This document shows positions 54,764 through 56,248 of a DNA stretch of 64,000 nt, in pieces. Made by a program: the position numbers and the translations under genes. The stretch's first letter is position 1; the number at the start of each line of letters is the position of its first letter. A model generated the notes under the pieces. The model was not told the origin of the DNA, ran no database searches, and saw nothing but the letters and a program-made list of their open reading frames with translations. The DNA comes from Candidatus Hermodarchaeum yapensis (GTDB taxonomy: Archaea; Asgardarchaeota; Hermodarchaeia; Hermodarchaeales; Hermodarchaeaceae), in NCBI GenBank assembly GCA_016840405.1, contig JAEOSK010000001.1, positions 1 to 64,000 of the forward strand, given 5' to 3'.

Positions 54764-56248
54764 TCATACATCTTCTATCCCCTCAATTCGCGCTAGAGTC
54801 CATCTTCCCTTATCTGTCAGATCATAATATTGTCTTTTGGATTTTCGATAGGTTTGAACGGAGCGTGTTCGTGTGATAAGACCAGTGCGTATCAGCTCGT
54901 TAAGGTGTTGATACACACTTGATACTGAAACCTTGACGCCTGTTTCTGCAATTAGTGTCTTCCAAATAGCATAGCCATATGATTCATTTCTTTGGAGAAT
55001 CTTAAGGATGTGGAGTTTAGTTCCGCCCAATTTTGTTGTATACTTTCGTTTCTCAACGCGACCAAGAAGATGTTCTATATTGGTATGGCCTTTTGCAATG
55101 GTTTGAGCAATTTCTGGGTATTTTAATCCCATCCCAGTAATTACACAGATGATTTTATCTCCTGTGTCAATTGAACCTTCTCGAAGTATTTGATGTAAAG
55201 CTGCAATAGTTGCAGCTGATGCGGGTTCAGCAAAAACACCTTCTAAACTAGCTAATGAACTGACGGCATCCAAAATTGCACTATCTGAAACTGAAACAGT
55301 AAAGCCCTCCGATTCACGAATTGCATCTAAAGCAAGTTTTCCACAAGACGGGTTTTTCATTCCAATATCTATAGCTATCGTCGATGCCTTGGTTGATGGT
55401 TCAACGGATTTACTGCCCTTTTGAAAGGCAGTAACAATGGGGGCACATCCTTTTGCTTGTACGCCGATGAGTTTTGGTGGTTCCTTTTCCATCCATCCGA
55501 GCAATTGTAATTCTTTGATTGCTTTCCAAATCATTGAAAGATGACCACCATTTCCCATGGGCACAAGAATCCAGTCTGGGGGAATCCAATCGAGTTGTTC
55601 ACAAATCTCATAGCCTGTGGTTTTCACACCCTCAAGAAAGTAAGGGCTATGACCAATTATTGTGTGTGCATTCGGGGCTCTTTCTATCGTTCGTGCTTCT
55701 CCCTCCTCGCGGTCTTTCACTATTTCTAATTCTGGTTGATAAGCGATTATTTGGTAGAGTTTGCCAATGTCGACTCTTTGTGGCACAAACACATGACTTT
55801 TCATTCCTGCTCTAGCAGCATAAGCAACTACCGAGGCTGCAAGGTTGCCTGATGAGCCACATGAAACGGCTTTGAAACCAAGTTCTTTTGCTTTTGATAT
55901 TTCAACACTTGTTCCGCGATCAATGAAAGCCCCTGTAGGATTGGTGGTTTCATCCTTTAGGTAGAGCTGTCGTAAACCCAGTTTTTGGGCGAGGCGGTCG
56001 CATTCATGCAGAAATGTTCCTCCCTCTCCTAGAGAAACAATGTTCCGCCGATCCTGTACTGGAAGCAGTTCAAAATACTTCCAAACACCTGGTTCTCTGT
56101 CAGCTAATGATGAAACATCAATCTGATTATGGATTGCTTCAAGATCATAAACAACCTCGAACAAACCACCACATTGAGGGCACCCATGTATTGGAGGCGA
56201 CGGGCGTTCCGTTTCGTAGGCGCATTCTGAACATCGGAGCTTTGACAT
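54764..56248 (-). CDS. Threonine-synthase-fold protein lacking the PLP lysine, fused to a PadR-type wHTH
   Basis: SLGEGGT, NPTGAFIDRG, SSGN, PMGNGG, EPASAA, ITGMGLK; C-terminal ESYGYAIWK..SSVYQHLNEL..GLI..RQYYDLTDKG. Confidence 0.88.
   Translation of the reverse strand: MSKLRCSECAYETERPSPPIHGCPQCGGLFEVVYDLEAIHNQIDVSSLADREPGVWKYFELLPVQDRRNIVSLGEGGTFLHECDRLAQKLGLRQLYLKDETTNPTGAFIDRGTSVEISKAKELGFKAVSCGSSGNLAASVVAYAARAGMKSHVFVPQRVDIGKLYQIIAYQPELEIVKDREEGEARTIERAPNAHTIIGHSPYFLEGVKTTGYEICEQLDWIPPDWILVPMGNGGHLSMIWKAIKELQLLGWMEKEPPKLIGVQAKGCAPIVTAFQKGSKSVEPSTKASTIAIDIGMKNPSCGKLALDAIRESEGFTVSVSDSAILDAVSSLASLEGVFAEPASAATIAALHQILREGSIDTGDKIICVITGMGLKYPEIAQTIAKGHTNIEHLLGRVEKRKYTTKLGGTKLHILKILQRNESYGYAIWKTLIAETGVKVSVSSVYQHLNELIRTGLITRTRSVQTYRKSKRQYYDLTDKGRWTLARIEGIEDV

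What the first reader, a model, noticed from the sequence alone, without database searches (positions are those of the whole stretch)
54764..56248. Threonine-synthase pseudo-enzyme fused to a PadR winged helix: candidate new one-component regulator
Seen: a complete ThrC-type fold with N-terminal Zn ribbon, SSGN, PMGNGG, EPASAA and ITGMGLK. The PLP motif reads NPTGAFIDRG instead of NPTGSFKDRG. The Ile codon (ATT, 55922-55924) is two substitutions from a Lys codon, so a single base error is unlikely. The C-terminal ~90 aa form a PadR-like wHTH (YGY.I, SVY..L..L...GLI, YY.LT.KG). Established: fold-type II PLP enzymes need this Lys for the Schiff base; MocR/GabR regulators use a fold-type I sensor domain. 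Inference: an analogous transcription factor built on fold-type II, sensing PLP, phosphohomoserine or threonine. It is divergent from an ECF S-component gene across an 88-bp AT-rich gap, a plausible target.
Basis: partly seen in the sequence, partly recalled or inferred. Interest (0 to 1): 0.75.

Follow-up and report, generated by a model that had tools for sequence, protein, structure and literature searches.

The report
Archaeal vitamin B6 regulator mislabelled ThrC
A gene that databases call "threonine synthase" is a dead enzyme that has lost its catalytic lysine and gained a DNA-binding tail, and it most likely acts as the vitamin B6 sensor-regulator of many archaea, for which I found no B6 regulator described.

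Summary
ORF 54764-56248(-) encodes 494 aa: a Zn ribbon, a ThrC-type PALP domain reading NPTGAF-I-DRG (ATT at 55922-55924), a flexible linker and a PadR wHTH.

The Lys loss is a family trait. Among 64 diverse fusion representatives the position is L/I/V/M/R/T and so on, with only 2 K. All 65 stand-alone ThrCs keep K, and this genome has its own canonical ThrC on another contig. PLP-ring and PLP-phosphate contacts stay conserved.

Context points to vitamin B6. In 24 distinct fusion loci (Asgard, Bathyarchaeia, Nitrososphaerota), 16 have an adjacent PF07155 ECF-S gene and 3 have pdxS-pdxT. None of 70 stand-alone ThrC loci has either. The only solved relative of this ECF-S is the pyridoxamine carrier HmpT/PdxU2.

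A 22-bp dyad (56276-56297) overlaps both divergent TATA-like boxes. It recurs across phyla and is unique in this genome.

Best reading: an archaeal functional analogue of bacterial PdxR, built from different parts. Ligand and DNA binding are inferred, not shown.

No paper describing it was found. The scan reached the same reading earlier, on this stretch and on other genomes.

The parts
54764..56248 (-). ThrC-like/PadR fusion gene (494 aa plus stop), the proposed B6 sensor-regulator
   Evidence: ORF and translation; PALP plus PadR; AlphaFold model with pLDDT 88.1
56171..56233 (-). N-terminal Cys4 Zn ribbon (residues 6-26: CxxC-N13-CxxC)
   Evidence: Read from the sequence. C23 and C26 are nearly invariant in 121 homologues. 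The genome's canonical ThrC has the same ribbon.
55133..56038 (-). Fold-type II PLP (PALP, ThrC-type) sensor domain, residues 71-372
   Evidence: Pfam E 1.7e-66. Foldseek top hits are ThrC structures: 2zsj, E 1.3e-28, TM 0.86 normalised by target length.
55922..55924 (-). ATT codon for Ile109, replacing the Schiff-base Lys (T. thermophilus K61)
   Evidence: The family column is L19 I18 V7 R7 M4 among 64 fusion representatives, against K in 65 of 65 stand-alone ThrCs.
55025..55111 (-). Flexible linker (residues 380-408)
   Evidence: Low pLDDT of 54-65 in the model
54791..55009 (-). PadR-type winged helix-turn-helix (residues 414-486), followed by a C-terminal helix to residue 492
   Evidence: Pfam PadR E 3.5e-14. 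The model shows three helices, a beta wing and a C-terminal helix.
56271..56297 (.). Operator-like block. It contains a perfect 22-bp palindrome, TATATAAGTAATTACTTATATA (56276-56297), whose half-sites overlap the TATA-like boxes of both divergent promoters.
   Evidence: It is unique in the 2.7-Mb assembly at up to 3 mismatches. It is 100% conserved against G011 while the flanks diverge. The same 9-N4-9 element occurs in 12 of 14 clade-A loci.
56337..56969 (+). ECF S-component (PF07155, PdxU/PdxU2/RibU family), the proposed B6-vitamer uptake protein and main target
   Evidence: Pfam E 1.2e-36. The only PDB match is 4HZU_S, HmpT/PdxU2, E 4.5e-18. It is adjacent to the fusion gene in 16 of 24 loci.
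56969..57988 (+). Radical SAM protein whose start overlaps the ECF-S stop. It is probably co-transcribed, and its role is unknown.
   Evidence: A homologue lies in the Sif locus L012. It is absent from the G011 version of the operon.
58001..58540 (+). GNAT acetyltransferase in the same operon
   Evidence: Homologues are the first divergent gene in the Thor (L008) and Sif (L012) loci.
58636..59592 (+). EamA/DMT transporter, last gene of the co-directional cluster
   Evidence: A homologue lies in the divergent operon of Thor L008, which has no ECF-S.
54147..54767 (-). GNAT acetyltransferase directly downstream on the same strand, possibly co-transcribed
   Evidence: A likelier start is the ATG at 54644, preceded by AAGGAGAG.

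Best explanation
P0001 is not a threonine synthase. It is a one-component transcription factor made of a catalytically dead ThrC-like domain joined to a PadR winged helix by a flexible linker. The sensor keeps the residues that hold the PLP ring and phosphate but has Ile in place of the Schiff-base Lys. The proposed mechanism has four steps. First, the protein dimerises through the ThrC-like domain. Second, the two wHTH domains read the 22-bp dyad at 56276-56297. Each half-site of that dyad overlaps a TATA-like box, one for its own promoter and one for the divergent ECF-S/radical-SAM/GNAT/EamA operon. Third, the Lys-less pocket binds a phosphorylated B6 vitamer, most likely PLP, reversibly and non-covalently. 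Fourth, occupancy changes DNA binding so that B6 uptake is shut down when PLP is plentiful; in other genomes the controlled genes are pdxST synthesis genes. The co-repressor direction is inferred only. What is shown: the architecture, the family-wide Lys loss, the conserved pocket, the conserved adjacency to B6 genes, and the conserved dyad. What is inferred: the ligand identity, DNA binding, and the sign of regulation.
For: 1. Architecture is confirmed.
2. Lys loss is a family trait. 120 of 120 close homologues have I or L. Among 64 fusion representatives clustered at 50% identity, only 2 keep K, against 65 of 65 stand-alone ThrCs.
3. The pocket is under constraint in the fusions: N135 (N57/D7), G232 (61/64), G234 (64/64), T371 (62/64), D110 and R111 (64/64 each).
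4. A canonical ThrC with Lys is encoded elsewhere in the genome.
5. Of 24 distinct fusion loci, 16 have a PF07155 ECF-S gene and 3 have pdxS-pdxT within 4 kb, usually 60-215 nt away. None of 70 stand-alone ThrC loci has either.
6. The only solved relative of the ECF-S is HmpT/PdxU2 (E 4.5e-18), a pyridoxamine carrier (PMC4860826). PF07155 holds PdxU and PdxU2 (PMC9997740).
7. Bacterial PdxR regulons comprise pdxST, pdxK and pdxU, and MocR regulators are absent from Archaea (PMC5320631).
8. The dyad recurs at -28 to -49 in 12 of 14 clade-A loci across three phyla, and both half-sites change together in L018 and L102. A 27-bp block is a footprint against G011. The site is unique in this genome.
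9. The regulator and the ECF-S are present together in 2 of 15 genomes of the genus and are both absent from the other 13.
10. The homodimer model scores ipSAE 0.83 against a best control of 0.00. That mark was reached by 20 of 30 proteins solved as pairs of one chain and by 1 of 23 solved as single chains. The runs agree in at least 75% of contacts, and partner pLDDT is at least 83. ThrC dimers have been solved, so this pass may reflect likeness only.
11. No PdxS was found in this 86%-complete genome.
Against: There is no experimental evidence of any kind. PF07155 S-components carry various vitamins, riboflavin included, and this genome has at least 5 paralogues, so B6 specificity is inferred. 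The window's operon also contains a radical SAM, a GNAT and an EamA gene with no known B6 role. Five of 24 loci show neither ECF-S nor pdxST, though some of these have short flanks. Both half-sites are TATA-like, so part of the 'operator' conservation may simply be two back-to-back promoters, and individual dyads are often imperfect. The confident dimer interface does not include the wHTH domains. Classic PadR proteins are released from DNA by their ligand, which is the opposite of the co-repressor logic proposed here. Presence of the fusion does not clearly anticorrelate with PdxS: 10 of about 80 fusion-bearing genomes have PdxS, against 17 of about 71 without the fusion.
Confidence: 0.66

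Rival explanations
1. The regulator has the same architecture but senses a PLP-amino-acid adduct (an external aldimine) or an amino acid together with PLP, as GabR does. Without the catalytic Lys such an adduct would not turn over. The protein would then report amino-acid status rather than B6 status alone.
For: Residues around the substrate site remain conserved (E206, G207, K209, T210, E341, P342). The Lys-less pocket leaves the PLP aldehyde free. GabR/MocR provide a precedent (PMC5320631).
Against: The neighbours are B6 uptake or synthesis genes, not amino-acid genes. No amino-acid pathway gene recurs near the fusion.
Confidence: 0.15
2. The sensor binds a threonine-pathway metabolite (O-phosphohomoserine, threonine or homoserine) or SAM, and controls a transporter or modification cluster unrelated to B6.
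For: The domain descends from ThrC. The window operon holds radical SAM, GNAT and EamA genes that could act on an amino-acid-like compound.
Against: In three genomes the neighbour is pdxST. The position aligned to T. thermophilus R160 is never Arg in 64 fusions; it is F, L, Y, I or T. From memory R160 contacts the substrate phosphate. The genome's own ThrC has Q at that position, so this argument is weak. No thr or hom genes are adjacent to any fusion.
Confidence: 0.1
3. It is still an enzyme: a threonine synthase or other PLP enzyme that works without the Lys and carries a wHTH for autoregulation or some other purpose.
For: It scores above the TIGR00260 and PRK08197 cut-offs. All databases name it threonine synthase. 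Two clusters keep the Lys.
Against: From established knowledge, the Lys is needed both for transaldimination and as the catalytic base in fold-type II enzymes. It is replaced by I, L, V, M or R across the family. A canonical ThrC exists in the same genome.
Confidence: 0.04
4. It is a decaying pseudogene or an assembly artefact.
For: None, beyond the lost Lys.
Against: The frame is intact. There are hundreds of full-length homologues with a conserved pocket and wHTH. Synteny and the operator are conserved.
Confidence: 0.01

Closest known systems
PdxR and other MocR/GabR-subfamily regulators (GntR family, Bacteria)
   Same: Both are one-component regulators built from a PLP-enzyme-like sensor fused to a wHTH. 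Both are often divergently transcribed from their targets. The target set is the same: pdxST for synthesis and the pdxU-type ECF-S for transport (PMC5320631).
   Different: The sensor is fold-type II (ThrC-like), not fold-type I (aminotransferase-like). The DNA-binding domain is PadR and C-terminal, not GntR and N-terminal. The Schiff-base Lys is lost here, whereas from memory MocR proteins keep it. The hosts are archaeal with TATA/TBP-type promoters. There is no sequence homology, so the resemblance is convergent.
Threonine synthase (ThrC, EC 4.2.3.1), Zn-ribbon class (NCBIfam PRK08197)
   Same: The fold, the N-terminal Zn ribbon and most PLP-contact motifs are shared. The domain is about 36-41% identical to solved ThrCs.
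   Different: There is no catalytic Lys, there is an extra C-terminal wHTH, and the gene neighbours are B6 genes. The genome has a separate true ThrC.
PadR-family transcription factors (such as PadR and LmrR)
   Same: They share the wHTH with wing and a C-terminal helix (PF03551, E 3.5e-14) and a dyad-symmetric AT-rich site nearby.
   Different: From memory, classic PadR proteins are small (about 110-180 aa) and sense ligands at the dimer interface. Here a 400-aa enzyme-derived domain is attached to the N-terminal side of the wHTH and supplies the predicted dimer interface.
NCBIfam PRK05638 / NF004170 'threonine synthase' (equivalog model)
   Same: The 442-position model spans both the ThrC-like domain and the wHTH. 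This protein matches it end to end (residues 4-486).
   Different: This protein scores 303 bits, below the 421-bit cut-off. An Arg-type Lys-less protein (L093, 425 bits) does pass the cut-off, so the model's product name is probably wrong for the proteins it names.

Membership tests
Threonine synthase (functional enzyme) | Fold-type II PALP domain with ThrC-level sequence similarity | tested here: met
   TIGR00260 scores 201 bits (cut-off 167) and PRK08197 scores 338 bits (cut-off 303). Foldseek top hits are ThrC structures.
Threonine synthase (functional enzyme) | Schiff-base/catalytic Lys in the NPTGSFKDRG motif | tested here: not met
   Ile109. The position is non-Lys in 62 of 64 fusion representatives.
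Threonine synthase (functional enzyme) | Residues that bind the substrate phosphate (T. thermophilus R160 and others; roles recalled from memory, not verified in a paper here) | tested here: inconclusive
   The R160 equivalent is F204 here and is never R in 64 fusions. Only 32 of 65 stand-alone relatives have R there, and the genome's own ThrC has Q.
PadR family | PF03551 wHTH above the gathering score | tested here: met
   53 bits against a cut-off of 27, residues 414-486
PadR family | A dimer that binds an inverted repeat | tested here: inconclusive
   The homodimer model passes (0.83 against 0.00), but the interface runs through the ThrC-like domain. A conserved dyad lies upstream. DNA binding cannot be tested with these tools.
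MocR/PdxR subfamily | N-terminal GntR-type wHTH plus a fold-type I aminotransferase-like domain | tested here: not met
   Pfam finds PALP (fold-type II) and a C-terminal PadR. There is no GntR or aminotransferase hit.
MocR/PdxR subfamily | Regulon made of B6 synthesis, salvage or transport genes (pdxST, pdxU) | tested here: met
   By genomic context only: 19 of 24 fusion loci have ECF-S or pdxST adjacent.
NCBIfam PRK05638 | Score above the curated cut-off (421 bits) | tested here: not met
   303.5 bits
PdxU/PdxU2 (HmpT) B6 ECF S-components (the neighbour gene) | PF07155 membership and closest similarity to a characterised B6 carrier | tested here: met
   PF07155 E 1.2e-36. The only PDB hit at E up to 10 is 4HZU_S, HmpT.
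PdxU/PdxU2 (HmpT) B6 ECF S-components (the neighbour gene) | Transport of a B6 vitamer | not testable with these tools
   This needs an uptake or binding assay.

The most novel reading that the evidence does not exclude
The ThrC-PadR family is the general vitamin B6 homeostasis regulator of Asgard, Bathyarchaeia and Nitrososphaerota archaea. Loss of the Schiff-base Lys turned a covalent cofactor site into a reversible PLP gauge. Its regulon includes unknown enzymes: the 425-aa protein that is 74-89% identical across Loki, Sif and Thor, the radical SAM protein and the GNAT. Together these would form an undescribed B6 salvage or processing route in lineages where neither PdxS nor a recognisable pyridoxal kinase was found.
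Probability: 0.25. Interest if true: 0.85.

Novelty: new variant of a known kind. Interest (0 to 1): 0.72.

Why it matters
- **Missing regulator.** It would fill a gap, because MocR/PdxR regulators do not occur in Archaea (PMC5320631) and no archaeal B6 regulator turned up in my literature searches.
- **Convergent evolution.** It is a clean case of an enzyme-to-sensor conversion. The PdxR logic has been rebuilt from a different PLP fold and a different DNA-binding domain, with the catalytic Lys discarded.
- **Annotation error.** Hundreds of archaeal proteins, and one NCBIfam equivalog model, are labelled "threonine synthase". This can distort metabolic reconstructions of Asgard archaea.
- **Vitamin dependence.** PdxS was found in only 27 of 151 sampled Asgard genomes. 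B6 uptake and its control may therefore be central to their dependence on partner organisms.

Tried and rejected
- **PdxS anticorrelation.** I tested whether fusion presence anticorrelates with PdxS across 151 Asgard genomes. There is no clear signal: 10 of about 80 against 17 of about 71, and the genomes are not independent.
- **More operator copies.** I looked for further copies in the own genome and found none at up to 3 mismatches. A degenerate family pattern was badly designed and did not match even the window's own site, so it is uninformative.
- **The 425-aa neighbour.** Pfam and NCBIfam gave no hit. The Atlas feature search gave no usable hit. The AlphaFold model from 6 sequences had pLDDT 49, too poor for a fold search.
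- **ThrC substrate-phosphate residues.** I sought literature confirmation and found no accessible paper. That argument rests on memory and is further weakened because the genome's own ThrC has Q at the R160 position.
- **Pyridoxal kinase.** PF08543 gave only sub-threshold hits in the own genome, which is not informative in an 86%-complete MAG.
- **Literature on this architecture.** Searches for ThrC plus PadR or winged helix, for 'threonine synthase-like' regulators, and for an archaeal PLP pseudoenzyme regulator found nothing relevant.

Full report
**1. Observation**

The minus-strand ORF 54764-56248 is intact and encodes 494 aa.
- Pfam finds a full-length PALP domain (residues 71-372, E 1.7e-66) and a PadR wHTH (414-486, E 3.5e-14).
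- The N-terminus carries a CxxC-N13-CxxC ribbon.
- The motifs SSGN, PMGNGG, EPASAA and ITGMGLK are all present.
- The PLP motif reads NPTGAFIDRG.
- Ile109 is ATT at 55922-55924, two substitutions from a Lys codon.
- In alignments to solved ThrCs, I109 falls on the Schiff-base Lys (K61 of T. thermophilus).
- The AlphaFold model is confident (pLDDT 88.1, pTM 0.78). It shows a low-confidence linker at about 380-408 and a well-formed wHTH with wing and C-terminal helix.
- Its best structural matches are threonine synthases (2zsj, E 1.3e-28).

**2. The Lys loss is a family trait, not an accident**

A word-indexed search returned 120 homologues at 49-94% identity. All carry PALP+PadR and nearly all are labelled "threonine synthase". 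They come from Hod-, Thor-, Loki-, Odin- and Sif-archaea and from Bathyarchaeia. At position 109 they have I (106) or L (14) and never K.

An exhaustive HMMER search over 1.84 billion representatives, clustered at 50% identity, gave an unbiased sample.
- The 64 wHTH-bearing proteins have L19, I18, V7, R7 and M4, plus T, N, A, F and S. Only 2 have K.
- All 65 stand-alone relatives have K.
- Pocket residues stay conserved in the fusions. These are N135 (PLP O3'), the phosphate loop G232-x-G234, T371 (ring N1), D110/R111 and E341/P342.

The site is therefore maintained, but it cannot form an internal aldimine.

A FastTree phylogeny of the PALP core gives two fusion clades.
- Clade A (55 tips) has mostly hydrophobic residues at the Lys position and no K. 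It includes the window's protein.
- Clade B (10 tips, support 0.998) has the motif NPTNSF-R-DRA. The two K-retainers and one S are nested inside it.
- The unrooted topology is compatible with a single origin of the fusion.
- The Lys would then have been replaced at least twice, or lost once with K as a reversion in clade B.

The genome encodes a separate canonical ThrC (420 aa, NPTWSFKDRP) on contig 50. Threonine synthesis does not depend on this gene.

**3. What it sits next to**

I assembled 24 distinct fusion loci from Asgard, Bathyarchaeia, Nitrososphaerota and Jordarchaeum.
- 16 have a PF07155 ECF S-component gene within 4 kb. It is usually 60-215 nt away, divergent in clade A and downstream in clade B.
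- 3 have a pdxS-pdxT PLP-synthase operon instead. The Pfam scores are SOR_SNZ at E 1e-94 to 1e-101 and SNO at E 1e-50 to 1e-58. The operon is co-directional in G019, divergent in G031 and close by in G092.
- None of 70 stand-alone ThrC loci fetched by the same scan has either gene.
- The R-type and both K-retaining clusters also have an adjacent ECF-S. The link to the transporter therefore predates the Lys loss.

The window's ECF-S protein (56337-56969) has a single match among all solved structures at E up to 10. That match is 4HZU chain S (E 4.5e-18, nearly full length). It is the L. brevis HmpT/PdxU2 component, whose substrate is pyridoxamine (PMC4860826). According to PMC9997740, PF07155 contains PdxU and PdxU2/HmpT, two of the only three B6 transporters characterised in prokaryotes.

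Within the window's genus, the fusion gene and this ECF-S gene occur together in 2 of 15 genomes. Both are absent from the other 13.

PdxS was not found in this 86%-complete genome. It was found in only 27 of 151 sampled Asgard genomes. Three EcfT-type genes are present in the genome.

**4. Operator**

The 88-bp gap contains a perfect 22-bp palindrome, TATATAAGTAATTACTTATATA (56276-56297). It is unique in the 2.7-Mb assembly at up to 3 mismatches.
- Against the congeneric genome G011, a 27-bp block (56271-56297) is 100% identical while the flanking intergenic DNA has diverged.
- In 12 of 14 clade-A loci, the same 9-N4-9 element lies 28-49 nt upstream of the start codon. Its form is TATATAAGN-N4-NCCTATATA. 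These proteins are only 36-58% identical to the window's and span three phyla.
- In L018 and L102 both half-sites change together to TATTTA/TAAATA. This keeps the symmetry.
- The element also lies between pdxS and the fusion gene in G031.

There are caveats. Each half-site looks like an archaeal TATA box, so part of the conservation may be promoter function. Individual dyads are often imperfect. Clade B lacks this motif.

**5. Mechanism proposed**

The homodimer model passes.
- The ipSAE score is 0.83 against a best control of 0.00.
- That mark was reached by 20 of 30 proteins solved as pairs of one chain and by 1 of 23 solved as single chains.
- The runs agree in at least 75% of contacts, and partner pLDDT is at least 83.
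- The interface lies in the ThrC-like domain. ThrC dimers have been solved, so the pass may reflect likeness only.

I propose a dimer whose two tethered wHTH domains read the dyad and so occlude both divergent TATA boxes. I further propose that reversible binding of PLP, or another phosphorylated vitamer, in the Lys-less pocket modulates DNA binding. The co-repressor direction fits vitamin homeostasis but is pure inference. Classic PadR proteins work the other way.

**6. Comparison with known systems**

Functionally this mirrors bacterial PdxR. PdxR regulons comprise pdxST, pdxK and pdxU. PdxR is typically divergent from pdxST. The MocR subfamily is "not present in Archaea" (PMC5320631).

Structurally it is unrelated to PdxR. 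The sensor is fold-type II, not fold-type I. The DNA-binding domain is PadR, not GntR. The domain order is reversed, and there is no Schiff-base Lys.

It is not a functional ThrC, because a defining feature was tested and not met.

NCBIfam PRK05638 ("threonine synthase", equivalog) models the whole fusion, wHTH included. An Arg-type Lys-less protein passes its cut-off. This is a probable source of systematic misannotation.

I found no paper describing the architecture or any archaeal B6 regulator.

**7. Earlier notes of this scan**

The B6 reading had been reached before in this scan. One note concerns the palindrome of this same locus (e1-1493673). Three concern homologues in other genomes (e1-5455825, e1-4930992, e1-5543797). 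The HmpT match, the pdxST adjacency, the control on stand-alone ThrC loci, the unbiased Lys census, the tree, the genus co-occurrence and the footprint were all obtained here.

**8. Weak points**

- The ligand, the DNA binding and the sign of regulation are all untested.
- The roles of the radical SAM, GNAT and EamA genes in the window's operon are unknown.
- The S-component's specificity is inferred.
- The argument from substrate-phosphate residues is weak. F204 replaces the T. thermophilus R160 equivalent, and no fusion has R there. However, the genome's own ThrC has Q at that position, and the role of R160 is recalled from memory, not verified here.

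Noticed in passing
L010:2893-4170 (-); also L012-L016: An unannotated protein of about 425 aa follows the ECF-S gene in the divergent operon of Loki, Sif and Thor loci. It is 74-89% identical across these lineages, far more conserved than the regulator. It has no Pfam or NCBIfam hit. 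It was not found in the window's genome with this query.
   Followed up: partly
Proteins P0165, P0199 and 8 others (about 610-633 aa): This is a separate class: ThrC with the Lys retained, fused to a C-terminal LeuA_dimer (LeuA allosteric) domain. It looks like an allosterically regulated enzyme rather than a transcription factor.
   Followed up: partly
151 Asgard genomes: PdxS (PLP synthase) was found in only 27 of 151 sampled Asgard genomes of at least 80% completeness. This suggests widespread B6 auxotrophy or an unknown synthesis route.
   Followed up: partly
NCBIfam NF004170 / PRK05638; L093 (G016:C45:6687-8084): The 'threonine synthase' equivalog model covers the wHTH. A Lys-less protein with the NPTNSFRDRA motif passes its cut-off (425 bits against 421), so the model probably spreads a wrong product name.
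   Followed up: partly
window 54147-54767 (-): The downstream GNAT ORF overlaps the regulator's stop codon if it starts at 54767. An internal ATG at 54644, preceded by AAGGAGAG, fits the GNAT domain boundary better (the domain starts at about residue 44).
   Followed up: no
window 52410-54050 (-) and L008:6578-8191: A TfrA/NadB-like FAD_binding_2 flavoprotein lies just downstream of the regulator, both here and in a Thorarchaeota locus (518 bits between the two). In Thor it is followed by a ferredoxin-like gene and a DJ-1/PfpI gene. Any link to the regulon is unknown.
   Followed up: no
window 56969-57988 (+) versus L109 (G011:C29): The radical SAM gene between ECF-S and GNAT is absent from the otherwise collinear operon of the congeneric genome G011.
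   Followed up: partly
G000 contigs C65, C14 (15706-16380), C42, C10, C37: The genome holds at least five further PF07155-type S-component genes. One of them lies elsewhere in this window (about 15.7-16.4 kb) and appears as two separate matches within one 260-aa frame.
   Followed up: no
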